Shown piece by piece: positions 28,162 through 45,987 of a stretch of 50,901 nucleotides of DNA. The DNA is from Acutalibacteraceae bacterium (lineage in GTDB: Bacteria > Bacillota > Clostridia > Oscillospirales > Acutalibacteraceae). The stretch covers positions 1-50,901 of the forward strand of contig JAZSNQ010000152.1 of the NCBI GenBank assembly GCA_045536515.1, read 5' to 3'. The notes beneath the pieces are model-generated. The model saw only the letters and a program-made list of their open reading frames with translations. It had not been told where the DNA came from and searched no databases. The translations under genes and the position numbers were made by a program. Within the stretch, counting starts at the first letter, position 1; each line of letters opens with the position of its first letter.

Positions 28162-31100
28162 ATGGCAAATTGGAAAGAAAGTGCGAAAAAAAGTCTTGAA
28201 AATAGAACTGCAAATAATTCTACGCCTACTGTATCTGCCCCGAGTACACCTGCGGATGCTTCAAAATCACCAACTACCGGGGTGACAAATCCCGGTAGTT
28301 GGCAAGACAGTGCCAAAAGTAGCCTTGAATCAAGGGGCTATATTGCACCTGAAAACCGTTTGTATGAATTGAAACTCAACAACGGTAAGAATTTCGGCAT
28401 AGTCAGCTATGGAGCTTACAACGCTGTTAAAAATAATAAGCTTGACGATTACACCCCTAAAAACGAGGAAGAGAGAAAAGCTCTTGACGATTTCAAGGTA
28501 TACGCAGCAGAAGTGACCAAAGAGGCGGAAGCGGCTGCAAAACAAAAAAGAATCGACAGCAACCCTGTGTTCAAGAGGTACAACATTGACCCTGCGAACT
28601 TTAACCAACAGGATTTTCTTGACTGGCTTGAAAATAACAACATGCAGTTATATGACGCAGACAATTCAGGGCTGCACTATGGCTCTAAAGTTAAGGGTGG
28701 TTTTTTAGGTTTTGGCGGTAAAAAGCTTGCTACTCAGCAGCAAATCGAGGATGCCGATGTTCTATACGAGCTTCAAGCAAATAACTACAGAACCGAATTA
28801 GCACAGAGCGACAAAGGTGCTTTTTGGTCGGCTGTGGGCGGCTTGGCAGACGGTTTGTTCTTCGGTGGCTTGACAGCCTTTGGCGACCATATGGCGAAAT
28901 CAGATTATGAAAAAGCAGGATTAGACCCTGAAAGCTACGTCAGTCCTACACAAGCTTGGGCTAAAACAAAATCGGAAAACGCTGTTGCACATTTTGCAGG
29001 CGATTTAGCAGGTTCGGTTGTTACATTAGGACCTTTAAGCAAGGGAGTCAGCGCAGCGACAAAGGGCGTAGGTTGGATTGCAAATAGTCCGCAGTGGGTA
29101 CAAAGTGCCATTAACAGTGGTATTACTTTTGCTGTTGCAGGTGGCGCGGAAACAGCTTTTGACGGTGGCGATCTGAAAGATGTACTGATAAGCACAGGTG
29201 TAAATTTTGTAGGCGGTGCGGTTGGCGGTTCTTTAAGTAGCAAAGTCGGCACGCTCGGGGAAAGAATCCTGTTCAACAAAGGTTTGCAGCATAAAATAAT
29301 TCCCGAGATGATACGCAACGGCTTTTCTTCTGCTGCCTTTGCAGGTGGTAAGGTTGCATCTACCTATTTCCTTTATCCTGAAGAATACAGACCTACTGCG
29401 GAAGAAATGGCAAAGGATATTGGCGTAGCCTTTGCGTTTGGCGCTATTTCATCAGGTATAAACACGATGAAAGCATCAGCACAAAACAAAAAATATCTTG
29501 ATGACCTATATCAGAAGATGGCATCAGATTATGAAAGTATGGCGAAAGCCAACATCAACGGTAAAAGCGATATATCCGGCATTCGTAAGTTTGCAAAAAA
29601 TGTTGTCGGTTACAGTAACGCTATGGAAGCGTACTTAACAGGCAAAGAATTTAATGCAGCAATAGACGGAAACACGTACACATTCACGCCGAACAAGGTT
29701 CGTTTGGTCGGTCAGGATAAGTATGTTAAGTCAATCCTTTCAGAATTACAGACTATCCGAAATAACGCAAATGCCGTATTAAATGGTGTTGGTACTCCTA
29801 CAACAGATTTGGCGACCACCACACCCGCAAGTGACAGTGCAACTACTCCGGCGGTTGTCCCCACTCTCCCGAGTGGTGGCGCTCCAACAGGCGATGCAAA
29901 CACTCCTGTACCGCCTATTGTTTCTGCGCCGCCTGTAAGCAGCACACCTATCATTGATACGAGCTCTCCGTCCGTCCCTGCTTCTGCATCAGGCGAATTA
30001 AGCGAGATAATGGGTGCAGGTGAAATCACAAAGTTTACACCTGAATCCGCAAGCGGTGAGATAAAGCGATTGGAAAATATCCTCATTGCAAAAGGTGCAG
30101 ACGATGTATCACGCCGAGAGATTGTTGATACAGCACTTGAAATTGAAAAAGCATTGGCCGGTAGCGATAAAACTATCCGAAGTGTTTTTAACAACATATC
30201 GAAAATCACAAGTGGCGCTGTTACGGAGATTAAAAACAAAGCAGGCATATCAACTGCATACTGGAAATTGTTCGGCGAAAACTTTAAGGCAATACCGTCA
30301 GGAAGCGTAACCGATAATGTTAAATTGATTACCGAGTATGTAAACGCCTACACAGAAGCTTTGAAAAACGGTAATCCCGAAAAATTTAAGGCCGCCGTTG
30401 TTTCCGCAGACGGTAAAGACCTGTCTGCAGAACTGCCGCAGACCATTATGCGGAATGTTATCCCTGCAAATGCTCAAAACGCAGGTGAATACAGGTTAGT
30501 TGCAACACAGACTAAAAACATTATCAGTGATGTCGATGTTCAGATCGCAAGTGAAAGAGCCGAGATATACGGTGCTGAATCCAATACAGGCGAAAAAACT
30601 GAAACAAGAGAAGTTACCAACAGTCAGGCAGATACCCTTGCTGCGAATGAGCAGGTGAAAGCCTCTGAAACCGATTCTGTGAAAGATGCACAGACGTACA
30701 ATGTTATAATATCCAACCTAAAAAGAAAAGGCGAAGAACTCGGGGTGTTGGATAGAGCTTTCTTCACACGTTTACAAGAGGTTGAGAACTTCTATAATCC
30801 TACCGCAAGCGACAGAGCTTTAATAAGTAGTGAATTTCAGAGAGTGTTTGCAGGTAACACAGACCCCCTCGTTGCGAATTGGCTTGACAGCATCAGTGTA
30901 GCTGCGCAGCCTGTAACGAGCATGAATGAGCAAAACATGCATGTTAGCACTGAAAATACCCCTGAAAATGCGGCGACCGTTGATGTGGATTCAGACGAGG
31001 GCGTTGCGGATGTTTATAAATTACTGGATGATCTCGGCTTGACGTACGCTGAGAAAGACGTTATACTTAAATATAAAGGTGTAGACAGTTATTTTATAAA

Positions 31101-34100
31101 CGGTCTTTTACGAAGTGGACTTCCTTTAAGCAAAGAACAGACTGATTTTGTGAAATTGGTGAATGCCGCACTTGATAAATTTCCTACATACGGCGGCGTT
31201 GTATACAGGAATATCGGCTTTGATTCTCGTGAAGATTTTGAGGACTTTATATCAAAGCATCAGGGTGTTGATACAATAAAGTACGAAGCCTTTACGTCTG
31301 CATCGAAAGAACCAGACGGGTATCCTGTGGAACTGCCGTACACAGTGCGCTACATTATACAAGGCTATAGCTGTAAAGACGTATCCAAAATAGGAATACT
31401 CGAAGAAAATGAGGTTCTTTTTAAGTCGGATACGGAATTTCGTATCAATTCATTTGAAGTCAATGGGAATGAGATACAAATACAGTGCGAGGAGTTGAAA
31501 ACAGATGGCGCAGAGTTACGCACATCTTTTGGCGAAAACAGAAACGAAGGAAAAAGTGATGTCACTGGTGAGCAAGATTCCTCTTTCCGAACAGGCGATC
31601 AAGCTAATCAAGGATTGGGTGATCTTCGAGAAGGAAGCGGAAGCGCTAATGAGTTATCTGACACAGAATCCGCAGGTGAGCGAAGAAACACTGGTGAAAA
31701 CAGTTCTTCAGATAGCGTGGAATTACGCGAAGACGATAGGTATGTCCCCGGCACACAGGGAGTGCTACAGCGTAAAGCGTTAGCAGAATCAGAAAGCCCA
31801 CGAGACGAAATTCTAAGTCTGAAGCGTACAAAAAATATTTATTCCTTATTCAAGGGTGCAGCAAGGGTTGTTGTCGGTAAAGATATTATTACTGACGGCT
31901 TTGTGGTGCTCCCTCTAACTAATGAGTCACTTGCAAATGTCAAAAAGGTTGCAGGTGATGTTGTACAGGAAAACCCGAACTTTGAGATGCATAAATTCTA
32001 CCATGCTGATAACGATGTTGTCATTCAGGGTAATCCTAAAGTCGGTGAAGCTACTGCAAGCAATAATAAAACCATAATGTCATACACATTCAAAATTGAT
32101 GATGCGTTCTATTCTTGCAAACAGGAATTTATTGATGCTTTTAATAACGGAAAGAACATAATCAAGGCAAACAGAGCTGTTAACATTCCTTGGACCGTTC
32201 ACAGCGAAAACGGCGACCTCGTTGCACTGTTTTTAGGGTTGAGGGCAAAGGTAACAGAAGAAAGCTATAATCAGATGTTGTCTGTCGCTGAAATCAAGGC
32301 CGCAGAGCAGCAGAAAAAAGCTGACAAATCCAAACAGGCTTTTAACCCATCAGAGGTAAAAACAATCGTTAAAGGCAGCGGCATACCTCGTGTGTTTGAA
32401 ATGGACGGCTCTAAATATGTTACAGAGGGTCATTTCGCTTTGAGAACCGATGATGCAGGTATTGCACAGTTAAATGGAACCGTCATACCTTATCATTCAA
32501 TGAAAGACGGTATGCAGACTATTCCGGCAGATACCGTTAAAAAGCTGTTGGATAGCTCATATTCGGTAGATGTTGGGGAGCTTGCTCCTTATACTCCCGA
32601 GAGTGAAAAAGGGGCAAAAACACCGCCTTATTATGCTTTTGTTGCAGACGGTATTGCTCATCAGTATAGCAAAAAGTTTGTCGATGCTCTTAAAAAGCGT
32701 AGCATATCAATGAAGCTTACAAGCGGTGGGACTCTTAATACTACTCTGCTTGTAGGGTACGATGCAGACGGACACATCACGGGTTTTGTTTTACCTGTCG
32801 ATACAAACGGCAATAGCTTCGTTGATAAAGACGGAAACAAAATACCCTTTGCTACAAACGACAATTTGAAAGCTCTTGTAAAAGAAACAGTAGCAAATGA
32901 AATAAGAGCAGGTAAAAATACACCTGTGGTATCTAAAAAAGTATCTTCTGAAGCTCCGACAGAGGTTGAAAAGAACGAAGATGTATCGGGAAGTGAGCCT
33001 GACAGTGCTGTAATAGCAACAAAGAGCAAAGGCACAAAAACCGTAGCTAAATTTGTTGCATCGAGATTAGCACACGGTAAAAAGATACCTGCTGCGGAAC
33101 TTGCAAAAGTGGCTAATGTTGCGTTCGGCGGCACTATGGCCGATAACGCATACTCCATAAAAGATGCGTATGATGCTATGGAGCTTGGTGTGAATCAGCA
33201 TATCCTTTCAACGGAAGACATGTCAGCAGAAAAAATGCTTGAGCTCTTGGAACTTCTTCCCACGCAAACTAAGAGAACCGAGGATATGATAAAGTATCAG
33301 CAGTTTTCTACTCCGCCGTCTATTGCTTATTTAGCAAACTATGTCGCAAATGTAAACGCAAATGACATTATGCTTGAACCGTCCGCAGGTATCGGTGGTA
33401 TCGCAGTATTTGCGAAAAAAGACGGTGCGGCAGTTTACGTTAATGAGCTTGACGAACGCAGATTGAGCATTCTGAAAAACCTACCTTTTGATGGTTTCTT
33501 TAATGAAAACGCAGAACAGCTCGACAACATTCTCGGCGGTCAGATTGAGCCTACTGTTATTGTTATGAATCCCCCGTTTTCTTCTTCGTCCGAAAGAAAT
33601 ATGCAGAATACAAAAATAGGGGCAAAACACATTGAACAGGCTCTTAAAATCCTTGCGCCAAATGGCAGACTTGTTGCTATTGTCGGTCACGGTATGGGTG
33701 ACGGAGCACCTGCTTTCCGTAATTGGTGGAAAGATATTAAATCACAATATAATGTTAGAGCCAACATCCGTATAAACGGCAAAAACTACAACAAGTACGG
33801 TACAAATTTTGATATTCAGATGCTTGTTATCGACAAAAACGGTGCTACGACATACACCGAAACAGGCTTTGTCGATACCCTGCAAGAGTTACAGGAGAAA
33901 TTAGGAGGTATAAGAGATGAAAGACCTGCTATTGACTATTCGGCAAATGAACAAAGAACCCCTGCAACTACACGCACAGAGGATGTTACAACAGGAAAAA
34001 CAACCGATGTCGGAAACAGAACTGTATCTGATGCAGGTAGCCTTGCAGATAAGAGAAAATCCGCAGACAATGCAAACCTTGAAAAACAGTCTGAGCGAAA

Positions 34101-37100
34101 AGGTATTCAATCAACTGATGCAGACAGTGGAAAACCTGCAATCTCTACGCCCGAAAGCACAGATGTTATGGCTAACAAGGACAGAGGAATGGGAACAGGG
34201 CAGCAAAGCAGACCTGTTGGAAACCAAAACCCTGTTGGAGTTAGTGACAGCGATAGCGGACAATCTGATATACAGACAAGACGAGCTGAACCTCGAAAGA
34301 GAGTAAAGCACAAAGAACTGACTGACAGTATATTTGAGCATTACCAAACACAGCCGCTTCGTCTGAAGAACACACAGCCGCACCCTGCAAAAGTAAGCGA
34401 GAGTGCCGCCATGAGTGCCATTGAACCGCCCGTTGTTACATACAGACCCAACATTCCGCAGAGCATTGTTGAAAACGGCGTATTATCAGACGTACAGTTG
34501 GAAGCAATATCCTATGCCGGACAAAGCCATTCACAAACCTTGCCTAACGGGAACACAAGAGGGTTCTTCTTAGGTGACGGTACCGGTATCGGTAAAGGTA
34601 GAACAATCGCCGGAATGATGCTTGATAACTATAATCAGGGTAGAAAAAAATCATTGTGGGTAACGCTTAATTCAAGCCTTGTAAACGATGCAAAGCGTGA
34701 TGTAAAAGCTCTCTTCGGTGATTCTGATTTAGTTACACAGTTTGTAGGCGGTAATAAAGCGGACAGCGTATTAAACACTGATGAAGCTATTATGGTGATC
34801 AGTTACAGTGCTTTATCAAAAGGTTTTGACAGCGGCAATTCAAACTTTGAAAAAATTGTCAAATGGCTTGGTAAAGACTTTGACGGCTTAATTGTATTCG
34901 ATGAAGCCCATAAAATGGGTAATGCGACAGCTACAAAGGGTACAAGAGGCGTTAAAAAGGCAAGTCAGACAGGCCTTGCAGGTATCGCGCTGCAAGAAGC
35001 GTTACCAAAAGCAAAGATTGTTTATTCTTCTGCAACAGGTGCGACAGAGGTTGAGAACCTGCGTTATGCTGAAAGACTCGGCTTGTGGGGCGATGGCACA
35101 GCTTTTGTAACAGGTGATGATTTCGTAAGTAAAATTAAAGCAGGGGGACTTGCGGCAATGGAGCTTATTGCAAGAGATATGAAAGCAATGGGCGTGTACT
35201 TATCCCGAAACATCAGCTATGAAGATGTACGCTATGACAAGATTACCCATAAGCTCACAGGACAGCAGAAAAAAATATATGATGAACTTGCACGCAGTTG
35301 GCAAATCGTTCTTAACAATATCAACAAGGCTTTGGACACAACAAACCAAAGCAAAGACGGCACTGCGAGAGGTCGTGCGTTAGGCGCTTTTTGGAGTTCA
35401 CAGCAGCGATTCTTTAATCAGATATTAACCTCTATGCAAGTACCGAGCGTTATAGCAGATATTGAAAAGCAATTAGCTGACGGAAAATCTTGCGTGATTC
35501 AGTTGGTAAGTACCAATGAAGCGGCGCAGAATGAAGAATTCGCAAGGCTCAAAGCAGAAGATTTAGAGCTTGATGAATTTGACCTGACACCAAAACAGAT
35601 GCTTATGTCTTACATTGAAAACTCATTCCCGGTACAGCAGTTTGAGGAATACCGAGACGATGAGGGCAATGTTAGAAGCAAACCTGTTTACGATAGCAAG
35701 GGCAACCCTGTTATGAATCGTGAAGCTGTTAGACAGCGTGAGGACTTGCTTGCTAAACTTGGCAGCATTAAAGTACCATCCTCACCGATTGATATGATTA
35801 TCAATCATTTCGGGACAGATATGGTCGCTGAAAATACAGGCCGTGCAAGACGAGTTGTTCAGAAAGACGGTAAATTCATTGAGGAAAAAATCGGCAGTAA
35901 AAAAGATGCCGATGTAGATGCTTTCCAAAATGGCAACAAGCGAATTATTATATTCTCAAAAGCAGGTGGCACGGGTAAATCGTATCACGCTGACAGAGCT
36001 GCAAAGAATCAGCAGCAGAGAGTTCACTATTTGCTTGAAGCAGGTTGGCAAGCTGATAATGCGGTACAGGGTTTTGGTCGTTCACATCGAAGCAATCAGG
36101 CATCAGCACCAATATTCAAACTTGTTACAACAGATTTGAAAGGTCAAATGCGTTTTATATCAACAATCGCAAAAAGACTTGACCAACTTGGCGCAATGAC
36201 AAAAGGACAAAGACAAGCAGGTGGACAGGGTATGTTCTCTGCGAACGATAACCTTGAAAACAGTTTTGCGGCAGATGTGTTGGCTGTATTCTACAAGGAC
36301 TTAATTGCAAACAGAGTTGATGGCATCAGTGACGGTCTTGCCATTGTCGAAAAACTTGGACTGAGAGAAAAAATCCTTGATGATTATAACCGTATTATTG
36401 TTACAGCTCCCGAGCTTCGTGAGGTAAACAAATTCTTAAATAGAATTTTATCACTGGAAAGCTCCGAACAGAATACCGTGTTTGACGGATATTCAGAGCG
36501 TTTGCAGGATGCAACCGAAAAGGCAATGCAAGCAGGGACTCTTGATAAAGGTCTTGAAAACTATAAGGCGGATAAAATCACGCTGAATGAGGTTCAGGAC
36601 ATCAGAGAAGATGAAAGAAGCGGCGCTAAAACAAAGTATTATAATCTTACAGCAGAACACAAAATCAAACCTGTTAGATTTGAGGACGTAGCAACTGATA
36701 GTAAATCGTTTGTGGGGTTCTATCAGAACAAAACAACAGGCGCTGTCAGGGCAGTTATGCAGACATCTTCTACGACTGACCAATACGGAAATGTAACAAA
36801 CAATTATAAGCTTGTAGGTCAAGTTAAAAATGATTATGTAGCACAAAACCGTTTTTACGGTAATTGGACTAAACTCGAACCTGCAGAAGCAGCAAAACTT
36901 TGGAATGAAGAATTGTCAAGGCTTCCGGAATTCAGAAAAGAAAGTCTGCACTTGATAAGCGGCGTTGTTCTTCCTGTGTGGGATAAACTCCCGACAGAGA
37001 ATGTGCGAATATATCGTGTTCTTACCTCTGACGGTGAAATGCTTATCGGTAGAGTTGTCTCGGAAGATATGATTGACGGAACATTAAAACGTCTTGGATC

Positions 37101-40100
37101 TTCGAGGGCAAAAGAAAAAATTGCTACGACAGATTTAGTTACAGGTATTAAAAACGGTGATGTTGTACATCTTGAAAACGACTGGAGAATCGTTCAGAGA
37201 AAAGTATCGGGTGAAAATAGAATTGAGCTTGTGGGTCCTTCCTATGAACACTATGACCTACTTACCAAAAAAGGCGTGTTCACGGAAAGAATACAGTACA
37301 ACACAAGATATTTTATCCCTGCAGATACTAACACCGTAAAAATAATTGATGATATACTCAAACTTTCCCCGGTTATGCGTGTGGAAAATGCACGGTATTC
37401 CATCATTGAAAGTGAGGATTTTGCGTATGAGCAAACAGGAAACGATTTATTACCTCGAAACGGAAGATGGGGGCTTGATGAGAGTGCCGGAAAGCAAGCT
37501 GAAGGAATTTTCGGAAATGCAGAAAGCTCAAAAGCTCTCAGCACAGAAGAAAGAAACGCCTACGCAGCACAGCTCCGCAAAGACGGAAAAGTAGAAAGCA
37601 AACGTATTTGGACTATTGAAGCTGACTTCATCAAAGAGGATGCCTACAATGAAGAAATGAAAGAGATTATCGAAATGAATAAAAATTTCGGTATGAAGAT
37701 CACAGGCTTTTTCCTCGATGCAGGACGTTTAGCTTTCAGCCCCAATACCAAGGTCGGCGGTGTTATCTTCAATGGTGATGAGATATACATCTGCTACAAC
37801 CACCCGGAAAAATCGCCTTGGGCGATAGACCGTCACGAATTAGCGCACAGGTTATATAAATCATCCGAAATGCAAAAAGTAAAGCAACGCATATTGGGTA
37901 CAATCCCGGAAGATGTTAAGAGAAAAATACTTAGCCACCCTCGATATAAAAAATACGTTGCTCTTTTAAAAGACGATGACAAAGTTATGGAAGAAGTTAT
38001 CTGTGATGTAATGGCGGGTATGTCATATTACGATTTCGATTATGACTACACCGATTTAGTCAAAGCATATTGGAATAAAGACACAGCATTTATTGATTCC
38101 TACAAGGCGGCAGACTATATCAAAACAGCCGATACAGGTACAAATGATGCTTTTCTGTCAGAGGTCGGGTTCGGTAATGATGAACTGCTGCTCGCATCAG
38201 ACGATGCACCTACGGCTCAATACTTTGTATATGATACCGATGCAGAAGAATTAACCCCGGAACGCAGAAAAGAAATCTTTGAACAGTTTGACAAAGACCA
38301 TGCCGGAGTTGATAAACCTACACAAAAACAGTTGTGGGGTGAGCGTGCGGCGTGGGTAGCTCATAATATGACAAGAGTTTTTCCGAATATCCCAGAACGT
38401 GGTGAAAAAGGTACATTTTTTGCAGCGTTCCGCAAAAGTATGATACAGTGGAAAAACCTGCCTACCACTGCTTCCTTTATGGTTCAGGATAAGCTTAACA
38501 AAATGACAGAGGGATTAACTCCTGAAGAATTTAAGACGTTTTCGGAGCTTGTTTATTTCCTTGACTTACAGGAAGAAGCTCAAATTCAAAAAGAGCGTGG
38601 CTACACTGAAATACTGTTACCGAATGAGATAACCCCGAGTGAGGTTGATGCCATTGTAAAAGTGCTGAATGAAGAAGCAACCGAGAATGTTCAGCAAGCA
38701 CTTATAAAGAGGCAGAATATTTGGGATGCTCTCAAATCGCAGTACATAGAGCTTAACCGTTATATCGGTTTTGACACTGACGGAAAATTCAAGCGTAAAA
38801 ACTACTACCATCATCAGGTGATAGAGTATATGAACAATGGCGGCAAAGGTACAGGCAGCAGAGAAATTGGTATAAAGGCCGGACGTGGTTGGCTTAAAGA
38901 AAGACAGGGTTCTACCAAAGCAATCAACACTGACTTTTTGGCTGTTGAATACAAAGCTATGCTGCAAATGCAGTACGATGTATATATCGCTGAAACTCTT
39001 GGCAAAATTAAACAGCAGTATGACATCAAGCCGCAGCTTGAAAATGAAGCGTTTAAGAATAATAAAGAGGCTATAAATGCAATAATCCGTAAAGAAGCAA
39101 CAGGTAAAGACGGTAATATTATTCTTGATAGCAAGGGAAAACCTGATAGCGAAACGTATCGTCAGCAGCAGTGGTACAATTCACGCATTATGTTTGGTTT
39201 CAATGGCCTGTTTGATTTAGCTGATCGTAACGAGCTTCCTACCTATGACGGTGAATACATAAGAGTTGTCGAAGCATTAAAACGCCACGATTTGAATGTG
39301 CCGGGGCTGTATAAATATGTTGGCATAGTTGCAAGTACAAACCTGCCTGATAACGCAACCGATGCACAGGAACAGGCTGTGTTAAACGCAAGAACCGTTT
39401 TGAAATACACATCGCAAAAAAGAGAGTGGATAAAAAATGTTCTTGCTGATGATTATCAGACTTGGGAAACTCTTGCAAAGTCGATGAGTGATACACATAC
39501 CATTCATCAGCCAAGACGAGGTAATTATTTCTACACAAAAACCGTAATTGATGAAGATGCTTTCAACAAAGCTCATAATGATATGGTTTTAGCTTTAGCA
39601 TCAGGCGAAATTGATTTAGGTAATGTTGACATCACTAAGTTATTTACACAATATGCTGATACAGTACGGCTCACAGGTGCAGCCTACGAACAGTGGGTGT
39701 TACCAAATGAGATAGTCACCACAATGGATGAAATCGCAAATCCGAAAGCAGTAAATGTAGGTAGCAAAATTGCACGCAGTATGGTTTCGGCTTGGAAAGG
39801 TTGGGCAACAAGCATAAATCCTTTGAGGACTATAAAATTTGGTTTGCGTAATCTGTTCGGTGACTTAGATGCTGTTATTGCCGGAAATCCTAAAGTGACA
39901 ATGTATTCTAAAAAAGCTGTTCAGGACATCTATCAGGCAATGAGGTACAAAAAGTATTCTCCTGAATATATGGAATGGATTGAACGAGGTGGATACACAT
40001 CAATGATATTTGCAAATGAAATGGATTCGGAAATGCAAGACAAACTGTTTTCACATCTGAAAGACAAACAGGGTGTAAGCATTTTCAAAATCCCGGTTAA

Positions 40101-41367
40101 ACTGTTTGAAAAATATTATAACGGTGTAGAGAATGTTCATAATTTCCGTGAAGCAATACTCCGCTACTCTGCATATCTGTACTATAAAGAAGCGATTAAG
40201 CGTAACGGTGGAACTGTTAAAGACTTTGTTGCTTCTAACAGATACATTGTTAAGGGACTGAATACTGTTGAGGACAAAGCATATCAGCTTTCAAAGGATT
40301 TGCTTGGTGCGTATGATGAAGTCGGCAAAATGGGACAAACGCTCCGAAGATATTGGATTCCATTCTACTCCTTTACGGAAACTAACTTAAAGCGTTATTA
40401 CAGATTGTTTGAAAACATCATAGCTTCAGATGATAAAATACCGAAAAAAGCAGGTAAACTTTTACTCAAGGCGTTGATGGTAAATATGCTCGGTCTGCTT
40501 ATGGTTGCTTGGAATAAACTCGTTATGAAAGAGGAAGATGATAAGCTCCCTCCGTCTGTGAGAAATATTCCGCACCTTACATTAGGACAAATCGGTGAAG
40601 ATATTTACGCATTTAGACAGCTTGGCAGTTTTTCAGAATTACTTGAATGGTTTGGACTTGATGATTATAAATGGTCATCAGAGGACATTACCGCTCCGCT
40701 TGATAAAGCGTGGGGAATGATAACGCCTTTCCTGAAAATGCCGATTGAGTTAGCAAGTGGATTAAATTTATATCCATCACTTACACAACCCCGTGCGATT
40801 CGGGATAAATGGCAGCATTTCTTTAATTCTTTTGGCGTGGACGATTTATACAACGAAATCACAGGAAAGCCAACAAAGGGTATGGGTGAAATTCTTAAAG
40901 GCTCTGTTGTTTACAGTTACGATTACAAGGAAAGTGCCTACTATGAAATTCTTGACATCAAGCGTGAATATCAGGGTAAGACAGATAACACCATATATGG
41001 TACAGATGTAAAATCCAACGCTTTGTATTATATGAAAACGGCAGTTAGATACAAAGATAAAGAAGCTGCATTAAAATATCTTGATGAATACTTTGAAAAC
41101 GGCGGTACTGTTAAGGGCATTAAACAGTCATTCGCAACGCTTAATCCTATGTACGGATTCACAAGCAAGGATACAGCGGAAAAGGGTGAAGCCTTTATCG
41201 CATCGCTTACAGAGGATCAGAAAGAAAAATTGAAAATTGCACAGGACTATTACGAAAATGATTTAATGTTACCTGAAAATGTATTGGATAGGCTCGGTAA
41301 AAAAGGTATTACCGATGAAGAAGCTAAAAATGTTTTAAGGGGATACATTAAAGCGAAGTGCAAGTAA
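28162..41367 (+). CDS. Giant polyvalent (DarB-like) protein: membrane-like N-terminus, ADP-ribosyltransferase, N6-methyltransferase, strawberry-notch helicase, zincin peptidase, helical C-terminus
   Basis: ART R-S-E motifs (YR ~31204, TSAS ~31294, ENE 31405); EPSAGIGG ~33376 and NPPF ~33568; GDGTGIGKGR ~34573, DEAH ~34900, GRSHRSNQ ~36076; HELAH 37834. Confidence 0.9.
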   Translation: MANWKESAKKSLENRTANNSTPTVSAPSTPADASKSPTTGVTNPGSWQDSAKSSLESRGYIAPENRLYELKLNNGKNFGIVSYGAYNAVKNNKLDDYTPKNEEERKALDDFKVYAAEVTKEAEAAAKQKRIDSNPVFKRYNIDPANFNQQDFLDWLENNNMQLYDADNSGLHYGSKVKGGFLGFGGKKLATQQQIEDADVLYELQANNYRTELAQSDKGAFWSAVGGLADGLFFGGLTAFGDHMAKSDYEKAGLDPESYVSPTQAWAKTKSENAVAHFAGDLAGSVVTLGPLSKGVSAATKGVGWIANSPQWVQSAINSGITFAVAGGAETAFDGGDLKDVLISTGVNFVGGAVGGSLSSKVGTLGERILFNKGLQHKIIPEMIRNGFSSAAFAGGKVASTYFLYPEEYRPTAEEMAKDIGVAFAFGAISSGINTMKASAQNKKYLDDLYQKMASDYESMAKANINGKSDISGIRKFAKNVVGYSNAMEAYLTGKEFNAAIDGNTYTFTPNKVRLVGQDKYVKSILSELQTIRNNANAVLNGVGTPTTDLATTTPASDSATTPAVVPTLPSGGAPTGDANTPVPPIVSAPPVSSTPIIDTSSPSVPASASGELSEIMGAGEITKFTPESASGEIKRLENILIAKGADDVSRREIVDTALEIEKALAGSDKTIRSVFNNISKITSGAVTEIKNKAGISTAYWKLFGENFKAIPSGSVTDNVKLITEYVNAYTEALKNGNPEKFKAAVVSADGKDLSAELPQTIMRNVIPANAQNAGEYRLVATQTKNIISDVDVQIASERAEIYGAESNTGEKTETREVTNSQADTLAANEQVKASETDSVKDAQTYNVIISNLKRKGEELGVLDRAFFTRLQEVENFYNPTASDRALISSEFQRVFAGNTDPLVANWLDSISVAAQPVTSMNEQNMHVSTENTPENAATVDVDSDEGVADVYKLLDDLGLTYAEKDVILKYKGVDSYFINGLLRSGLPLSKEQTDFVKLVNAALDKFPTYGGVVYRNIGFDSREDFEDFISKHQGVDTIKYEAFTSASKEPDGYPVELPYTVRYIIQGYSCKDVSKIGILEENEVLFKSDTEFRINSFEVNGNEIQIQCEELKTDGAELRTSFGENRNEGKSDVTGEQDSSFRTGDQANQGLGDLREGSGSANELSDTESAGERRNTGENSSSDSVELREDDRYVPGTQGVLQRKALAESESPRDEILSLKRTKNIYSLFKGAARVVVGKDIITDGFVVLPLTNESLANVKKVAGDVVQENPNFEMHKFYHADNDVVIQGNPKVGEATASNNKTIMSYTFKIDDAFYSCKQEFIDAFNNGKNIIKANRAVNIPWTVHSENGDLVALFLGLRAKVTEESYNQMLSVAEIKAAEQQKKADKSKQAFNPSEVKTIVKGSGIPRVFEMDGSKYVTEGHFALRTDDAGIAQLNGTVIPYHSMKDGMQTIPADTVKKLLDSSYSVDVGELAPYTPESEKGAKTPPYYAFVADGIAHQYSKKFVDALKKRSISMKLTSGGTLNTTLLVGYDADGHITGFVLPVDTNGNSFVDKDGNKIPFATNDNLKALVKETVANEIRAGKNTPVVSKKVSSEAPTEVEKNEDVSGSEPDSAVIATKSKGTKTVAKFVASRLAHGKKIPAAELAKVANVAFGGTMADNAYSIKDAYDAMELGVNQHILSTEDMSAEKMLELLELLPTQTKRTEDMIKYQQFSTPPSIAYLANYVANVNANDIMLEPSAGIGGIAVFAKKDGAAVYVNELDERRLSILKNLPFDGFFNENAEQLDNILGGQIEPTVIVMNPPFSSSSERNMQNTKIGAKHIEQALKILAPNGRLVAIVGHGMGDGAPAFRNWWKDIKSQYNVRANIRINGKNYNKYGTNFDIQMLVIDKNGATTYTETGFVDTLQELQEKLGGIRDERPAIDYSANEQRTPATTRTEDVTTGKTTDVGNRTVSDAGSLADKRKSADNANLEKQSERKGIQSTDADSGKPAISTPESTDVMANKDRGMGTGQQSRPVGNQNPVGVSDSDSGQSDIQTRRAEPRKRVKHKELTDSIFEHYQTQPLRLKNTQPHPAKVSESAAMSAIEPPVVTYRPNIPQSIVENGVLSDVQLEAISYAGQSHSQTLPNGNTRGFFLGDGTGIGKGRTIAGMMLDNYNQGRKKSLWVTLNSSLVNDAKRDVKALFGDSDLVTQFVGGNKADSVLNTDEAIMVISYSALSKGFDSGNSNFEKIVKWLGKDFDGLIVFDEAHKMGNATATKGTRGVKKASQTGLAGIALQEALPKAKIVYSSATGATEVENLRYAERLGLWGDGTAFVTGDDFVSKIKAGGLAAMELIARDMKAMGVYLSRNISYEDVRYDKITHKLTGQQKKIYDELARSWQIVLNNINKALDTTNQSKDGTARGRALGAFWSSQQRFFNQILTSMQVPSVIADIEKQLADGKSCVIQLVSTNEAAQNEEFARLKAEDLELDEFDLTPKQMLMSYIENSFPVQQFEEYRDDEGNVRSKPVYDSKGNPVMNREAVRQREDLLAKLGSIKVPSSPIDMIINHFGTDMVAENTGRARRVVQKDGKFIEEKIGSKKDADVDAFQNGNKRIIIFSKAGGTGKSYHADRAAKNQQQRVHYLLEAGWQADNAVQGFGRSHRSNQASAPIFKLVTTDLKGQMRFISTIAKRLDQLGAMTKGQRQAGGQGMFSANDNLENSFAADVLAVFYKDLIANRVDGISDGLAIVEKLGLREKILDDYNRIIVTAPELREVNKFLNRILSLESSEQNTVFDGYSERLQDATEKAMQAGTLDKGLENYKADKITLNEVQDIREDERSGAKTKYYNLTAEHKIKPVRFEDVATDSKSFVGFYQNKTTGAVRAVMQTSSTTDQYGNVTNNYKLVGQVKNDYVAQNRFYGNWTKLEPAEAAKLWNEELSRLPEFRKESLHLISGVVLPVWDKLPTENVRIYRVLTSDGEMLIGRVVSEDMIDGTLKRLGSSRAKEKIATTDLVTGIKNGDVVHLENDWRIVQRKVSGENRIELVGPSYEHYDLLTKKGVFTERIQYNTRYFIPADTNTVKIIDDILKLSPVMRVENARYSIIESEDFAYEQTGNDLLPRNGRWGLDESAGKQAEGIFGNAESSKALSTEERNAYAAQLRKDGKVESKRIWTIEADFIKEDAYNEEMKEIIEMNKNFGMKITGFFLDAGRLAFSPNTKVGGVIFNGDEIYICYNHPEKSPWAIDRHELAHRLYKSSEMQKVKQRILGTIPEDVKRKILSHPRYKKYVALLKDDDKVMEEVICDVMAGMSYYDFDYDYTDLVKAYWNKDTAFIDSYKAADYIKTADTGTNDAFLSEVGFGNDELLLASDDAPTAQYFVYDTDAEELTPERRKEIFEQFDKDHAGVDKPTQKQLWGERAAWVAHNMTRVFPNIPERGEKGTFFAAFRKSMIQWKNLPTTASFMVQDKLNKMTEGLTPEEFKTFSELVYFLDLQEEAQIQKERGYTEILLPNEITPSEVDAIVKVLNEEATENVQQALIKRQNIWDALKSQYIELNRYIGFDTDGKFKRKNYYHHQVIEYMNNGGKGTGSREIGIKAGRGWLKERQGSTKAINTDFLAVEYKAMLQMQYDVYIAETLGKIKQQYDIKPQLENEAFKNNKEAINAIIRKEATGKDGNIILDSKGKPDSETYRQQQWYNSRIMFGFNGLFDLADRNELPTYDGEYIRVVEALKRHDLNVPGLYKYVGIVASTNLPDNATDAQEQAVLNARTVLKYTSQKREWIKNVLADDYQTWETLAKSMSDTHTIHQPRRGNYFYTKTVIDEDAFNKAHNDMVLALASGEIDLGNVDITKLFTQYADTVRLTGAAYEQWVLPNEIVTTMDEIANPKAVNVGSKIARSMVSAWKGWATSINPLRTIKFGLRNLFGDLDAVIAGNPKVTMYSKKAVQDIYQAMRYKKYSPEYMEWIERGGYTSMIFANEMDSEMQDKLFSHLKDKQGVSIFKIPVKLFEKYYNGVENVHNFREAILRYSAYLYYKEAIKRNGGTVKDFVASNRYIVKGLNTVEDKAYQLSKDLLGAYDEVGKMGQTLRRYWIPFYSFTETNLKRYYRLFENIIASDDKIPKKAGKLLLKALMVNMLGLLMVAWNKLVMKEEDDKLPPSVRNIPHLTLGQIGEDIYAFRQLGSFSELLEWFGLDDYKWSSEDITAPLDKAWGMITPFLKMPIELASGLNLYPSLTQPRAIRDKWQHFFNSFGVDDLYNEITGKPTKGMGEILKGSVVYSYDYKESAYYEILDIKREYQGKTDNTIYGTDVKSNALYYMKTAVRYKDKEAALKYLDEYFENGGTVKGIKQSFATLNPMYGFTSKDTAEKGEAFIASLTEDQKEKLKIAQDYYENDLMLPENVLDRLGKKGITDEEAKNVLRGYIKAKCK
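31505..31783 (+). CDS. Nested +1-frame gene A (92 aa), candidate ART immunity protein
   Basis: GAGGAG 31489-31494, ATG 10 nt later; helical product; host frame here is linker-like. Confidence 0.6.
   Translation: MAQSYAHLLAKTETKEKVMSLVSKIPLSEQAIKLIKDWVIFEKEAEALMSYLTQNPQVSEETLVKTVLQIAWNYAKTIGMSPAHRECYSVKR
33917..34306 (+). CDS. Nested +1-frame gene B (129 aa)
   Basis: AGGAGGT 33903-33909, ATG 7 nt later; spans methyltransferase-helicase linker. Confidence 0.68.
   Translation: MKDLLLTIRQMNKEPLQLHAQRMLQQEKQPMSETELYLMQVALQIRENPQTMQTLKNSLSEKVFNQLMQTVENLQSLRPKAQMLWLTRTEEWEQGSKADLLETKTLLELVTAIADNLIYRQDELNLERE
37427..37594 (+). CDS. Nested +1-frame gene C (55 aa)
   Basis: GTGAGGA 37412-37418, ATG 8 nt later; MSKQETIYYLETEDGGLMRVPESKLKEF. 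Confidence 0.58.
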   Translation: MSKQETIYYLETEDGGLMRVPESKLKEFSEMQKAQKLSAQKKETPTQHSSAKTEK

Positions 41368-41410: not shown

Positions 41411-41656
41411 CGTAACAGTTAAATGTAACATTATAAAAACGGTGTCAAATTGTTACTGTAACAAAAATACAAATGTTACGCTGTGCGTTACACACTTTGT
41501 TACATACTTTGTTCGCATAAAATAAAGGTTTACAACAATTTTGTAACATTGTAACATTCTTTTTCTATTAACTTCAAATTAGGGAGTTTAGAGAGAAATA
41601 TTACGCCCTGCACGCCCCCATACACACATATAGGGTTTTATGTTACTTTGTTACAA
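41411..41656. repeat. Diverged direct copy of the 7011-7256 iteron region
   Basis: Shared blocks such as TGTAACATTATAAAAACGRTGTCAAATTGTTACTGTAACAAAAATACAA and TTTTGTAACATTGTAACATT. Confidence 0.88.
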
Positions 41657-41872: not shown

Positions 41873-42409
41873 TTAATTTCGGTCAGTGAAAATCGATGTG
41901 AGGAACTCGTTGTATATCTTTTCGGCGTGTTTGTAGAATGAGGCTGTGATTTTTTTTGCATCCTCACGGTTTGACGCTGTCATTGAAAAAGAGAAGATTT
42001 CGCCCGACTCATCAGCGAGTGAAGCGATTGCACGAAAGCCGTCCTTTTCCTCAACAACCTTTACGTTTACGAGATTTTTCCTGATAATTTCATCCTTGAC
42101 CTTGTCGGTTTCCTTTTCCGCCTTGCGAAGGATATAGCTTGGGACGGAAGAACGTATTGCGTTAAGGTCGCGAACACCCTTGGCGGTAATCAAATATCTG
42201 TCAACACCCGTATCAGAGCAGATTTCCACATGACCGGTTTTCAGCATACCGTTGAGATGCTCTGCAAAATCAAAGTAGTTTATGGCACCGTCAACAAAAA
42301 CCATGCTCATAAGCTCTTCAAAGGTTACGGAAATCTTGATGTAATCGAGAACATGGAGTGTTAATGTTTTAATTTCAAGTTCTGTTCTGACAAAACCGTA
42401 TCCCGGCAT
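41873..42409 (-). CDS. DUF4364-like winged-helix protein
   Basis: INYFDF..L..M...G, YLITAKG; GAGGT RBS. Confidence 0.7.
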   Translation of the reverse strand: MPGYGFVRTELEIKTLTLHVLDYIKISVTFEELMSMVFVDGAINYFDFAEHLNGMLKTGHVEICSDTGVDRYLITAKGVRDLNAIRSSVPSYILRKAEKETDKVKDEIIRKNLVNVKVVEEKDGFRAIASLADESGEIFSFSMTASNREDAKKITASFYKHAEKIYNEFLTSIFTDRN

Positions 42410-42574
42410 AACTATACCTCGCTGTAAAAATGTAGTTTGAAAATTTACTATAGCATTATATCACAGTTTTGATTTTTTAACAAGGTAAAATAAGTAATAA
42501 ATTGTTTACTGGACTTATGTGAAAAAATAGTGTAAAATATTATCAGTGAAAATTGAGAACAAGGAGAAAAAACG

Positions 42575-43900
42575 ATGAACAAAAAATGCTTATTTGCCGG
42601 GGTGCTTTGTGTACTTATGATATTTGCGATATTTATGCTTGCCACCTTCGGAAACAAGAATACTTCTTCCCAAGAGGAAGTAGCTGCGGGTGATAAAATG
42701 CTTTCAGAAGAAGAGAAAAGGGCACTCACAGCGGAAACTCAAGAATATATAGAGGCTCTTGAAAAAGACGCCACAGATACAGAGGCATCAAAGGAGCTTA
42801 GCCGTATATATGCAAAGTATGGTTTGTATTTCGATGCGGCAAATACAATAAAGAATGCAATTCTGTATGCACCGGCAGACACAGAGCTTTATGACGAGCT
42901 TTTGTGGATTTACAGGCAGAGTGGAAACACGCTCGAAGCCCTGTCCTACATAGACACCATATCAGACGAGAAAATCCGCCGTGAGTGCATAGATAAAGCA
43001 TACGACAGAAATGCTCCCAATTCGCTCAGGATGGGAAATACTATGGGTAACTTCACGACAGGCGGTATGATAGCAGTTGACGGTGACGTGATATATTACT
43101 GTGATGCAGCAAACGGCGATGCTCTTTCATGCCTCCGTGACGGAAAAACAGAAGTTCTTGTCCAAAGCGGTGCGTCATATCTCAATATTGTGGACGAATA
43201 TATATACTTTGTAGGAAGAACGGATTACAGGATATATAAGATGAATAAGGACGGCTCAGGGCTTTCGATGGTCAGTGATACTGCAGCCTCAAATCTCATC
43301 ATAATCGGAAATAATATGTATTTTATCAACTGGGATGATGAGTGCAAGGTATACAGCATGAATATAGATGGTTCGAACAAACAGAAGATAACTGATATTT
43401 CCTCGGATTTTCTTTATGCATACGGAACGCATATCTATATAAACGACCGTGACAGTATGCGTGATCTCTATTGCGTTTCTCTTATAGACGGAAGCGGACA
43501 ATTGATCTCTATGAACGAAACATACTTTGTTACGGGTTATGATAATAACATCTATTTCCGCCTGCAAATAATGCAACAGAATGATGCCTTGTATAGTCAG
43601 GAGAATGGTGCAAACCTTTCAGTGTGGCGTATGACCACTGACGGAAGTGTGTACGAGAAGATAAACAACTCTCGCTCAGGTTACATCAATGCAGACAAAG
43701 GAGAGGTGTTCTTCACAGACTTTGAAGAGGAAGCCCTCTATAAAGTGCAGGCAGACGGCACAGGACTTACAAAACTCTGCGATGATGACCCGATAAACAT
43801 AGCGATAAACGGAGACTGTGTATACTACTTCAGCGATAATAACGGCAAAAAGCTTTATAGAATAAGGAAGGACGGAACGGGCAGGGAGTGCCTTAACTGA
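42575..43900 (+). CDS. Membrane-anchored TPR plus DUF5050-like beta-propeller protein
   Basis: N-terminal TM, TPR-like helices, repeated IYKMNKDGS-type blades. Confidence 0.8.
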   Translation: MNKKCLFAGVLCVLMIFAIFMLATFGNKNTSSQEEVAAGDKMLSEEEKRALTAETQEYIEALEKDATDTEASKELSRIYAKYGLYFDAANTIKNAILYAPADTELYDELLWIYRQSGNTLEALSYIDTISDEKIRRECIDKAYDRNAPNSLRMGNTMGNFTTGGMIAVDGDVIYYCDAANGDALSCLRDGKTEVLVQSGASYLNIVDEYIYFVGRTDYRIYKMNKDGSGLSMVSDTAASNLIIIGNNMYFINWDDECKVYSMNIDGSNKQKITDISSDFLYAYGTHIYINDRDSMRDLYCVSLIDGSGQLISMNETYFVTGYDNNIYFRLQIMQQNDALYSQENGANLSVWRMTTDGSVYEKINNSRSGYINADKGEVFFTDFEEEALYKVQADGTGLTKLCDDDPINIAINGDCVYYFSDNNGKKLYRIRKDGTGRECLN

Positions 43901-43902
43901 TT

Positions 43903-44247
43903 ATGATTAAACGTAATTCGTCGCAGAGAAAAGAAATAAAAGAGAACCTTCGCGGTGGCGTTGGCGCGCTTGATTTCAAGCACATCTTTGAAAAGAGCGA
44001 GCTTTCGGATAAGGCAAATATGTTTGCGGAGGTAATTCTCCTTCCCGGACAGTCCATAGGCGAGCATCCTCACGGCACAGAGGGTGAGCTTTATATTGTA
44101 AAAGAAGGCATCGCAACGGTCACCGATTGCGGAGAGGTTTATGAGTTGTATGCAGGTGATGCTATGTGGACAACGGCAGGAGAAACTCATTCTATAGAAA
44201 ACAAGACCGACGACCTTCTTGTCATATATGCGATAATTCTTCCGTGA
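43903..44247 (+). CDS. Cupin domain protein
   Basis: PGQSIGEHPH..E.ELY....G, GETHSIEN. Confidence 0.88.
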   Translation: MIKRNSSQRKEIKENLRGGVGALDFKHIFEKSELSDKANMFAEVILLPGQSIGEHPHGTEGELYIVKEGIATVTDCGEVYELYAGDAMWTTAGETHSIENKTDDLLVIYAIILP

Positions 44248-44290
44248 TGTATTGACACGGCAGAGCATATAGTGTATTATAATACTGCAA

Positions 44291-44410
44291 ATATTCTTTG
44301 GGGCGAGGTGAAATTCCTCACCGGCAGTTATAGTCTGCGAAGGAAAGTGCAAGCTTTCCCTGAATCGGTGTAATTCCGATACCGACGGTATAGTCCGGAT
44401 GAAAAAAGAA
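44291..44410 (+). ncRNA. FMN riboswitch
   Basis: GGGGCGAGGTGAAATTCCTCACCGGCAGT...GGTGTAATTCCGATACCGACGGTATAGTCCGGATGAAA; TTGACA at 44252. Confidence 0.92.
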
Positions 44411-44446
44411 ATGTAGCATACTGTATTTTGCAGAATATGTTATCTT

Positions 44447-44474
44447 ACCGCCCTGATTTTCAGGGCGGTTTTTT
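44447..44474 (+). terminator. Riboswitch terminator
   Basis: ACCGCCCTGA-tt-TCAGGGCGGT followed by T run. Confidence 0.85.
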
Positions 44475-44514
44475 CATTGAAGAGTATTGCAAATATTTTT
44501 TTGAGGTGGTAAAT

Positions 44515-45069
44515 ATGCCCGATTTAAAAAAAATCCATTCCGACCTTTCAACCAGAAACCTTGTAGTTCTCGCAATGCTCGTGTCACTCAGCTATGTCGT
44601 GAGCCTCTTTGAATTTCCCATATTTCCTGCAACTCCGTATTTAAAGCTTGATTTCGGGAACGTGTTGCTTCTTCTTTCGGGCTTCATTTTCGGACCGGTT
44701 GCGGGCGTGCTTGCCTGTATCGCGAAAGAGCTTTTAAGCCTTATAGGTACATCCAGCGGCGGTGCGGGTCAGGTCGCAAATATGATTATGTCCATAGCCT
44801 ATATAATAGTTCCGAGCATTGTATATTGCTACAAAAAAGGGCTTAAGACAGTCATCATAACGCTTTGTATCGCGTGCCTTCTCGGCACCGTAACAGCCCT
44901 TCTTGCAAACCGATTTATTGTCTTCCCACTGTATATGAAGGATGCGGCACCTGCAGTGTTCCGTGATGCGTTCTGGTATGTTTTGGCTTTCAACCTCATC
45001 AAAACCCTTTCCGTAAGCATTATAACAATCCCGCTTTATAAAAAACTCAAATTTATAAAGCAGATATAG
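44515..45069 (+). CDS. ribU: ECF transporter S component (riboflavin)
   Basis: EFPIFPATPYLKLDF, GP..G, FNLIK; under FMN riboswitch; GAGGTG RBS. Confidence 0.85.
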   Translation: MPDLKKIHSDLSTRNLVVLAMLVSLSYVVSLFEFPIFPATPYLKLDFGNVLLLLSGFIFGPVAGVLACIAKELLSLIGTSSGGAGQVANMIMSIAYIIVPSIVYCYKKGLKTVIITLCIACLLGTVTALLANRFIVFPLYMKDAAPAVFRDAFWYVLAFNLIKTLSVSIITIPLYKKLKFIKQI

Positions 45070-45192
45070 AGTAAAGATTAAACGAATAAGAGGCGATGCA
45101 TATAATTTAATGCATTTGCCTCTTTCTTTTTTTAAATAAAAATGCTATAATATGCCTCGTGATATATTTTTATACTATAATGAGGTGTTAAA

Positions 45193-45936
45193 ATGTTAAA
45201 AGGTAAAATCGCCGTCGTCACGGGCGGCACTCGTGGTATCGGTTATGCAATAGTAAAAAAGTTTCTTGAAAACGGCGCAACAGTAGTTCTCTTCGGCTCA
45301 AGAGAGGAGACTGTAGATAAAGCACTTTCTTCGCTTCGCGCTGAAAATGCGGAGTGGAACGTAAGCGGAGACTTCCCCAATCTCTCCGACCCTGCTTCCG
45401 TTGCGTCGGCAATAGAAAAGGTGCATGAGGAGTTTGGCAGAATAGATATTCTCGTAAATAACGCAGGAATTTCCGACAGCACACCGATTGACAACTACAC
45501 AGCCGCACAGTTTAATAAGGTTATGGACCTTAACGTAAACGCGATTATGAATACTGTGATGCCCACAGTAAAGATAATGAAAGAGCAGGGAAGCGGCAAC
45601 ATCATAAACACAAGCTCAATGGTAAGTATTTGTGGACAGAGAAGCGGTGTTGCATATCCCACAAGTAAGTATGCGGTAAACGGTATGACATGGTCGCTTG
45701 CCCGCGAGCTTGCCCCCTTTAATATCCGCGTGAATGCAGTCGCCCCCGGCATCACAAAAACGGATATGGTAGCGGCGCTTCCTGATGAGATGATAAACCC
45801 CCTTATAAATTCCATACCCCTTCGCCGTATCGGCACACCTGAGGAAATGGCAAACGCATTTCTGTTCCTTGCAAGCGAGATGTCAAGCTACGTAACGGGT
45901 GAAATCCTGTCAGTCGACGGTGCAATGAGAACATAA
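45193..45936 (+). CDS. SDR oxidoreductase, 3alpha-hydroxysteroid dehydrogenase-like
   Basis: TGGTRGIG, NNAG, YPTSK; FGSREETV and SGVAYPTSK resemble gut bile-acid 3alpha-HSDHs as recalled. Confidence 0.75.
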   Translation: MLKGKIAVVTGGTRGIGYAIVKKFLENGATVVLFGSREETVDKALSSLRAENAEWNVSGDFPNLSDPASVASAIEKVHEEFGRIDILVNNAGISDSTPIDNYTAAQFNKVMDLNVNAIMNTVMPTVKIMKEQGSGNIINTSSMVSICGQRSGVAYPTSKYAVNGMTWSLARELAPFNIRVNAVAPGITKTDMVAALPDEMINPLINSIPLRRIGTPEEMANAFLFLASEMSSYVTGEILSVDGAMRT

Positions 45937-45952
45937 TCTGATAAAAACAACA

Positions 45953-45986
45953 AAAAGCCTTGAAAACATAACGTTTTCAAGGCTTT

Positions 45987-45987
<1 letters not shown>
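45953..45987. terminator. Bidirectional terminator (SDR / displaced tRNA terminator)
   Basis: AAAAGCCTTGAAAAC-ataac-GTTTTCAAGGCTTTT. Confidence 0.85.

What the first reader, a model, noticed from the sequence alone, without database searches (positions are those of the whole stretch)
31489..37594. Three RBS-bearing genes overprinted in the +1 frame of the giant protein's linkers
Seen: ORFs 31505-31783, 33917-34306 and 37427-37594 share the +1 frame and each has a well-spaced Shine-Dalgarno (GAGGAG, AGGAGGT, GTGAGGA). Each starts where a folded domain of the 4401-aa protein ends (after ART, methyltransferase and helicase). The main frame there reads as G/S/D/R/T-rich linker while the +1 products look like ordinary amphipathic proteins. 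Inference: modules were captured as enzyme plus partner gene pairs and fused by read-through, keeping the partners as hidden genes. They could be inhibitors or chaperones that silence the domains during virion assembly and are left behind on injection.
Basis: partly seen in the sequence, partly recalled or inferred. Interest (0 to 1): 0.85.

Follow-up and report, generated by a model that had tools for sequence, protein, structure and literature searches.

The report
Hidden partner genes inside giant gene
A 4,401-codon phage gene carries three small reading frames, each with its own ribosome-binding site, shifted by one base inside its spacers; relatives conserve two of these hidden proteins better than the spacers, so they are very likely real unannotated genes, probably captured together with neighbouring enzyme modules, and one of them would plausibly act as the antidote to the ADP-ribosylating module just before it.

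Summary
Observation confirmed. The three +1 ORFs are the three longest of 210 stop-free +1 stretches and have SD ranks 4, 1 and 2 of 180 ATGs (shuffle P about 0.005).

ORF2 is a real gene: present at the same spot in 26 of 26 methylase-helicase giants, with selection switching to the +1 frame. ORF1 belongs to a ~91-aa family. It is lost together with the ART domain in two relatives and sits behind the ART in an unrelated giant. Five free-standing ART toxin genes show the same +1 start geometry. ORF3 is weaker and tracks the downstream peptidase, not the helicase.

The linker, not the small gene, looks like the overprinted frame. Five of six plasmid methylase-helicases lack ORF2, and an ORF1-like gene also follows a non-ART domain. 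I found no paper on this in 10 searches. This scan has noted the same phenomenon on other DNA (13 notes).

The parts
28162..41367 (+). Giant polyvalent gene, 4401 aa, at the end of the virion/lysis module of a P22-portal temperate phage
   Evidence: portal, terminase, holin and NlpC/P60 upstream
31039..31503 (+). ADP-ribosyltransferase domain (main frame; R, S-x-S and E-x-E motifs visible)
   Evidence: Pfam PF03496 E 1.2e-6; 43% identical to the ART in G312
31039..31067 (+). Possible internal sigma-70-type promoter TTGACG-17-TATACT in the first ART codons, 440 nt before ORF1 (tentative)
   Evidence: same register TTGACA-17-TATACT in G312; chance given the peptide 0.085 and 0.06
31489..31494 (+). 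Shine-Dalgarno of ORF1, inside the last ART codons
31505..31783 (+). Hidden ORF1, 92 aa, predicted five-helix protein; candidate ART inhibitor
   Evidence: family of 18 sequences; nested behind an ART in G312; AF2 pLDDT 90.8
33001..33915 (+). N6-adenine-type methyltransferase region (main frame, NPPF motif)
   Evidence: weak Pfam MTS/Eco57I/N6_Mtase hits
33903..33909 (+). Shine-Dalgarno of ORF2
33917..34306 (+). Hidden ORF2, 129 aa, predicted all-helical; conserved in the methylase-helicase linker of phages and some plasmids
   Evidence: AF2 pLDDT 90.5
34378..37416 (+). Strawberry-notch-type helicase with its conserved C-terminal extension (main frame)
   Evidence: Pfam AAA_34, Helicase_C_4; extension found in all full-length relatives
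37412..37418 (+). Shine-Dalgarno of ORF3
37427..37594 (+). Hidden ORF3, 55 aa; probable gene, weaker support
   Evidence: intact in L002 and in the covered parts of 4 laid runs; close homologues 72-91%; positional counterpart in L039, similarity not significant
37597..38121 (+). HExxH (HELAH) metallopeptidase-like domain whose presence tracks ORF3; the label comes from the motif and PMC5512222, with no Pfam hit

Best explanation
The three shifted frames are very likely real small genes that were probably captured together with neighbouring enzyme modules when these were fused into the giant gene, and ORF1 would most likely act as an inhibitor of the ADP-ribosyltransferase domain just before it. 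SHOWN: own SDs; conservation of ORF1 and ORF2 as protein families; selection on the +1 frame in ORF2; joint presence or absence of ART and ORF1. INFERRED origin: an enzyme gene with its translationally coupled small partner (SD in the enzyme's last codons, ATG in +1, stop a few codons later, as in free-standing ART toxin genes) lost its stop, and the giant's frame now reads through the partner as a disordered linker. INFERRED function: the giant is made late, packaged and injected. The small proteins are made from the same mRNA, ORF1 possibly also from an internal promoter, and stay in the producing cell or lysogen. There ORF1 would bind the ART and prevent self-intoxication, ORF2 would serve the methylase-helicase module as a dispensable accessory (folding, packaging or damping), and ORF3 would go with the downstream peptidase. 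My odds: ORF2 a gene 0.95, ORF1 0.9, ORF3 0.7; capture with read-through 0.65; ORF1 inhibits the ART 0.45.
For: Gene status. In ORF2, substitutions versus L002 fall 15/2/3 on main codon positions 1/2/3, against 8/5/103 in the helicase; synonymous/non-synonymous codons are 12/5 in +1 and 2/15 in the main frame. 26 of 26 loci with both motifs (29 examined, 3 lacked the motifs; two pairs are duplicates) have a 113-171-codon +1 stretch with an SD-led start 108-133 codons after NPPF, versus 18-87 codons in +2. Two blind profile hits among 300 genomes are both nested at that spot. Cassette: L002 and L039 lack ART and ORF1 together; G312 has ART plus a nested ORF1 homologue among other domains. Geometry: in 5 of 5 ART-terminated genes of this type (L064-66, L069, L071) the next small gene starts in +1 within -5 to +1 nt of the ART end. 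[quoted passage not shown] TnpV is free-standing in 24 of 30 loci and nested +1 in long frames in 5 (one more doubtful), so free genes do get engulfed. Both proteins fold confidently in AF2.
Against: No expression, proteomic or binding data. Only two ART-ORF1 loci have DNA context; contexts of the other 16 family members could not be fetched. No free-standing ART followed by an ORF1 homologue was found; the partners of free ART genes do not match the ORF1 profile (best E 0.012). A second ART family (L072-77) has its next gene in frame 0 or +2. A shorter ORF1-like gene follows a non-ART domain in L039 (E 1.1e-6). No free-standing ORF2 was seen, and 5 of 6 plasmid methylase-helicases lack it. 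ORF3 shows no clean frame switch: 5 synonymous and 8 non-synonymous of 13 sites in +1, though only 3 of 13 are at main position 3. Promoter-like sites overall are no more frequent than chance (27 versus 29.1).
Confidence: 0.5

Rival explanations
1. Real genes, but passengers: small late or assembly proteins unrelated to the adjacent domain, engulfed because the linkers of a late-expressed giant gene tolerate a second frame.
For: ORF1-like gene after a non-ART domain. ORF3 not tied to the helicase. Other giants nest short basic ORFs elsewhere (L050, L052, L053, L058). TnpV occurs both free and nested. BS-TP4 has an unrelated +1 stretch in its linker.
Against: ORF2 keeps one position across 43-97% helicase identity and 34-70% GC. 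ART and ORF1 move together.
Confidence: 0.27
2. Real genes acting as chaperones or packaging factors that load the giant protein into the head, like P1 Ulx for DarB (Ulx role recalled; papers seen only as a search listing).
For: ORF2 is present in all phage giants examined and absent from most plasmid versions, which need no capsid loading. All-helical predicted fold.
Against: No similarity to P1 Ulx (hhalign probability 0.1%). One plasmid giant (Methylomonas) has ORF2. Does not explain ORF1's link to the ART.
Confidence: 0.15
3. True de novo overprinting: the small genes arose later from pre-existing linker sequence.
For: No free-standing ORF2 found. Linkers are more hydrophilic than a -1 reading of ordinary genes would give (0.63 versus 0.43), so the linker is under selection of its own.
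Against: Without ORF2 the linker is shorter (274-301 versus 325-388 aa from NPPF to Walker A) and Pro/Ala-rich. Hidden frames are more conserved. Start geometry matches free gene pairs.
Confidence: 0.06
4. Chance open frames produced by biased linker codons.
For: A +1 stretch of 130 codons occurs in 17% of shuffles; ORF3's frame is open in 39%.
Against: Joint occurrence with top-ranked SDs, frame switch of selection, conserved families and confident folds. Still tenable for ORF3 alone.
Confidence: 0.02

Closest known systems
Polyvalent proteins of phages and conjugative elements (Iyer et al. 2017, PMC5512222; passages read)
   Same: Giant multi-domain late protein with ART, methyltransferase, strawberry-notch helicase and HExxH peptidase-like domains beside virion genes.
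   Different: The main text has no occurrence of 'overlap', 'linker' or 'TnpV', and its hits for 'nested' and 'reading frame' are unrelated to nested genes. Its supplementary files were not read.
traH inside traI of plasmid RP4 (PMC7314908 passage)
   Same: A small accessory protein encoded in another frame within a large DNA-processing gene, stabilising its complex.
   Different: A single case in a relaxase. Here several hidden genes lie in one gene, one per module junction. No sequence comparison was made.
MuF polymorphic toxins with downstream small ORFs (PMC5576092 passages)
   Same: Virion-borne ART domain followed by a small, tightly coupled gene; identical +1 start geometry in 5 of 5 related loci.
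   Different: There the toxin gene stops; here it reads on through the partner. The partners are not ORF1 homologues. No MuF domain was detected in the giant.
Rpn intragenic antitoxins RpnS/RpnL (PMC10327210 abstract and introduction); Rhs toxins with internal promoters (PMC7043789 passages)
   Same: An inhibitor or toxin-immunity unit expressed from within a larger coding sequence.
   Different: RpnS is in frame and is the protein's own C-terminus; ORF1 is out of frame and unrelated in sequence. Inhibition is untested here.
Lambda Rz1 in Rz; comS in srfAB (recalled; named in the scan's notes)
   Same: Same-strand gene nested in a shifted frame.
   Different: Different functions; single genes; not repeated at module junctions.

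Membership tests
Polyvalent proteins (Iyer 2017) | Several disparate conflict-related domains in one polypeptide | tested here: met
   ART, methyltransferase, Sno helicase; HExxH motif seen in the sequence
Polyvalent proteins (Iyer 2017) | Encoded among late/virion genes of a phage | tested here: met
   terminase, portal, holin, NlpC/P60 upstream
Polyvalent proteins (Iyer 2017) | Packaged and delivered with the DNA | not testable with these tools
   needs virion proteomics
Nested same-strand genes | ORF wholly inside another gene in a shifted frame with its own RBS | tested here: met
Nested same-strand genes | Purifying selection on the shifted frame | tested here: met
   ORF2 clear; ORF1 at protein level; ORF3 inconclusive
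Nested same-strand genes | Translation demonstrated | not testable with these tools
   no RNA or ribosome data available
Toxin-immunity pair (ART + ORF1) | Small gene directly downstream of, and co-inherited with, the toxin domain | tested here: met
   2 loci with both, 2 close relatives with neither; small sample
Toxin-immunity pair (ART + ORF1) | Partner family specific to that toxin family | tested here: inconclusive
   shorter ORF1-like gene after a non-ART domain; contexts of 16 homologues unknown
Toxin-immunity pair (ART + ORF1) | Toxicity, binding and rescue | not tested
MuF toxins | N-terminal MuF domain, gene next to portal, C-terminal toxin | tested here: not met
   no MuF hit; ART is internal; gene lies about 13 kb from the portal
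P1 Ulx-like accessory protein (ORF2) | Sequence similarity to Ulx | tested here: not met
   hhalign probability 0.1%, E 0.59
Known protein folds (ORF1, ORF2) | Structural match to a solved family | tested here: inconclusive
   best Z 6.8 (rmsd 3.2, 76 aligned) and 4.2 (rmsd 2.8, 48 aligned)

The most novel reading that the evidence does not exclude
Giant injected phage proteins are fused operons. They grow by swallowing whole enzyme-plus-partner cassettes and reading through the partner gene as a linker, so their 'disordered spacers' are a systematic, unannotated layer of genes. ART-ORF1 is then an injected toxin carrying its own out-of-frame antitoxin, with its own promoter, inside the same gene, which keeps the weapon silent in the producer and live in the next host.
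Probability: 0.4. Interest if true: 0.85.

Novelty: new variant of a known kind. Interest (0 to 1): 0.72.

Why it matters
It suggests how 2,000-6,000-residue polyvalent proteins are built and how a cell could make them without harm, and it makes both questions testable: each hidden ORF predicts a partner for a named domain. It also exposes a blind spot in annotation. ORF1 and ORF2 are conserved families with confident predicted folds, but they have no significant hit in PHROGs, ORF2 none among PDB sequences, and no Pfam hit for the members scanned. The annotated plasmid record carrying an ORF2 homologue lists only the giant gene there.

Tried and rejected
No match for ORF1-3 in 50,697 annotated phage records, nor for the G312 ORF1 homologue. 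ORF1-family scans gave little: viral contigs one spurious in-frame hit and nothing; metagenome contigs nothing. Genome searches with ORF1 profiles found 1 of 400 class genomes, 0 of 400 order and 0 of 400 phylum genomes besides G000. P0017 (a 1105-aa repeat protein) was dropped from the ORF1 alignment as a chance hit. The ART scan of viral contigs found nothing; L070 was a false ART hit and L078 a distant one.

ORF1 and ORF2 are not related to each other. Fold searches gave no clear match; the best for ORF1 is a 64-aa uncharacterised phage protein, E 0.08. My idea that linker composition is merely the -1 reading of an ordinary gene was rejected.

No RNA holder was listed, which is no evidence either way. 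Two laid runs had no cover over the ART region; I did not use this as evidence. Complex prediction and the protein atlas were not available, so ART-ORF1 binding has no prediction. The promoter before ORF2 seen in 5 of 25 relatives is absent in this window, and its register was chosen after seeing the data. Ten literature searches listed no paper on nested genes in polyvalent or DarB-like proteins; subscription papers and supplements were not covered.
Full report
Setting. The window is all of contig C58 of G000. It holds replication genes, terminase, a P22-like portal, lysis genes and then the 4401-aa gene, followed by host-like genes and an integrase. Close relatives lie in viral contigs and in genomes titled Lachnospiraceae and Clostridia. 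The giant has an ART domain, a methyltransferase region, a strawberry-notch helicase and an HExxH motif, the architecture of polyvalent proteins described in PMC5512222 (passages).

Observation. The three ORFs, their frame and their SDs are as reported. They occupy the three longest of 210 stop-free +1 stretches and have SD ranks 4, 1 and 2 of 180 +1 ATGs. Three such ORFs arose in 5 of 1000 synonymous shuffles, with thresholds set after the fact. Length alone is unremarkable, and ORF3's frame stays open in 39% of shuffles.

ORF2 (33917-34306). Against L002, substitutions in this stretch fall 15/2/3 on main codon positions 1/2/3, while the helicase shows 8/5/103. Against L038 they are 43/23/15 versus 37/20/288; against L039, 72/49/54 versus 113/60/340. 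Main position 1 is the wobble position of the +1 frame, so selection switches frame. Of 29 loci examined, 26 had both the NPPF motif (estimated for L038) and the Walker A motif in frame. All 26 have a 113-171-codon +1 stretch in the linker with an SD-led start 108-133 codons after NPPF; it is the longest +1 stretch of the gene in 13 of them; the +2 control is 18-87 codons. These 26 include the window and two duplicate pairs, and kin are not independent. The products align on an N-x-x-P-L-N-x-x-A-x-x-L-L motif and resemble the window's ORF2 more than the linkers resemble its linker in 22 of 25 cases. A profile search of 300 genomes gave two new hits, both nested at the same place. AF2 gives pLDDT 90.5 and pTM 0.85, with no clear fold match. 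Against an essential role: of 6 plasmid loci fetched from 585 matching records, only Methylomonas has ORF2; the other 5 have shorter linkers and no homologue.

ORF1 (31505-31783). Searches found 17 further proteins; 16 of them, with the window's ORF1 and the G312 copy, make an 18-sequence family, mostly about 91 aa long, at 18-89% identity. AF2 gives pLDDT 90.8. The close relatives L002 and L039 lack both ART and ORF1. Genome G312 has a 43%-identical ART in a giant with different neighbouring domains, followed at once by an SD-led +1 ORF1 homologue. There the hidden proteins align (z 10.7) and the linkers do not (z -0.4). In 5 of 5 ART-terminated genes of this type (two annotated as minor head proteins) the next small gene begins in +1 within -5 to +1 nt of the ART end, with its SD in the last ART codons and the toxin stop a few codons later. 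That is the window's arrangement with a stop codon. PMC5576092 proposes such small ORFs as immunity genes (passages). Limits: those five partners are not ORF1 homologues; a second ART family (6 near-identical loci) uses frame 0 or +2; a 65-aa ORF1-like gene is nested after a non-ART domain in L039; and I have DNA context for only two ART-ORF1 pairs. A sigma-70-like site lies in the first ART codons in both pairs, in the same register. Its chance given the peptide is 0.085 and 0.06, and such sites are not enriched overall, so it is only a lead; PMC7043789 reports internal promoters in rhs toxin genes (passages).

ORF3 (37427-37594). SD, start and frame are unchanged in L002 and in the covered parts of four laid runs, and three close homologues were called as genes. 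Main-frame third positions vary little (1 of 54 versus 39 of 234 and 53 of 160 in the flanks; 3 of 13 variant sites), but the +1 frame has 8 non-synonymous against 5 synonymous sites. A strong-SD ORF follows the helicase extension in 3 of 23 giants, and these are the only 3 with the downstream HExxH domain. The L039 counterpart is not significantly similar (E 0.39). ORF3 is probably a gene, and it goes with the downstream module.

Generality. TnpV (a recalled lead, tested here) is nested in +1 inside long frames in 5 of the 30 best loci examined, with one more doubtful and 24 free-standing; two hosts carry MutS_I domains. So established free genes do get engulfed in this way. The scan's earlier notes report nested genes in other giants (13 notes; 2 near ART domains; none for the ORF1 sequence). 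They are unchecked and not independent support; I took the traH lead from them and checked it in PMC7314908.

Mechanism. Shown: dual coding of ORF2, family status of ORF1, co-inheritance of ART and ORF1 in four loci. Inferred: capture of enzyme-partner pairs and read-through, so that the linker is the newer reading; late co-expression with the giant; ORF1 as ART inhibitor left behind when the giant is injected; ORF2 as dispensable accessory or packaging factor. No binding prediction or expression data could be obtained. Passenger genes (0.27) and packaging chaperones (0.15) remain live rivals.

Verdict. Real and well supported as hidden genes, with function open. Nested genes are a known kind (traH, RpnS, and from recall Rz1 and comS), but their recurrent placement at module junctions of polyvalent proteins did not appear in my ten searches. 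New variant of a known kind, interest 0.72.

Noticed in passing
window 7013-7256 and 41412-41655: A 247-bp direct repeat (79% identity), one copy just after the VapE-like gene and one just after the giant gene; nature unknown.
   Followed up: no
window 41873-47120: Host-like genes (DUF4364, DUF5050, cupin, ECF S component, SDR) lie between the giant gene and an integrase at 46092-47120; 45984-46035 matches two other contigs at 94-96%, possibly an attachment site.
   Followed up: partly
L039:14900-15452: Perfect TTGACA-17-TATAAT inside the giant gene about 110 codons upstream of a nested 65-aa ORF1-like gene.
   Followed up: partly
L050, L052, L053, L057, L061 at NPPF+87 to +89: Promoter-like sites (10-11 of 12) about 30 codons before the ORF2 homologue: 5 of 25 versus 0.79 expected; register chosen after the fact, loci related, absent in the window.
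   Followed up: partly
L050 aa 492, L052 aa 790, L053 aa 809, L058 aa 373 of their giants: Further SD-led nested +1 ORFs of 46-58 aa, strongly basic; those of L050 and L052 resemble each other.
   Followed up: no
L018, L024, L025, L031, L032: TnpV (PF14198) nested in the +1 frame of long ORFs, two with a MutS_I domain.
   Followed up: partly
L086 (Bacteroides phage BS-TP4, PQ571277): A cultured phage whose giant gene has an unannotated 121-codon +1 stretch in the methylase-helicase linker, not matching the ORF2 profile; a possible test system.
   Followed up: partly
P0021: An ORF3 homologue whose C-terminus resembles main-frame sequence about 190 residues downstream, suggesting a deletion of the peptidase domain in that contig.
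   Followed up: no
L064:1931-2800 (phage phiCD24-1): The ART gene is followed by a small gene, an orphan ART fragment and two more related small genes, like a cassette array.
   Followed up: no
window 30771-30798: Promoter-like TTTACA-16-TATAAT (11 of 12) inside the giant, just upstream of the ART module.
   Followed up: no
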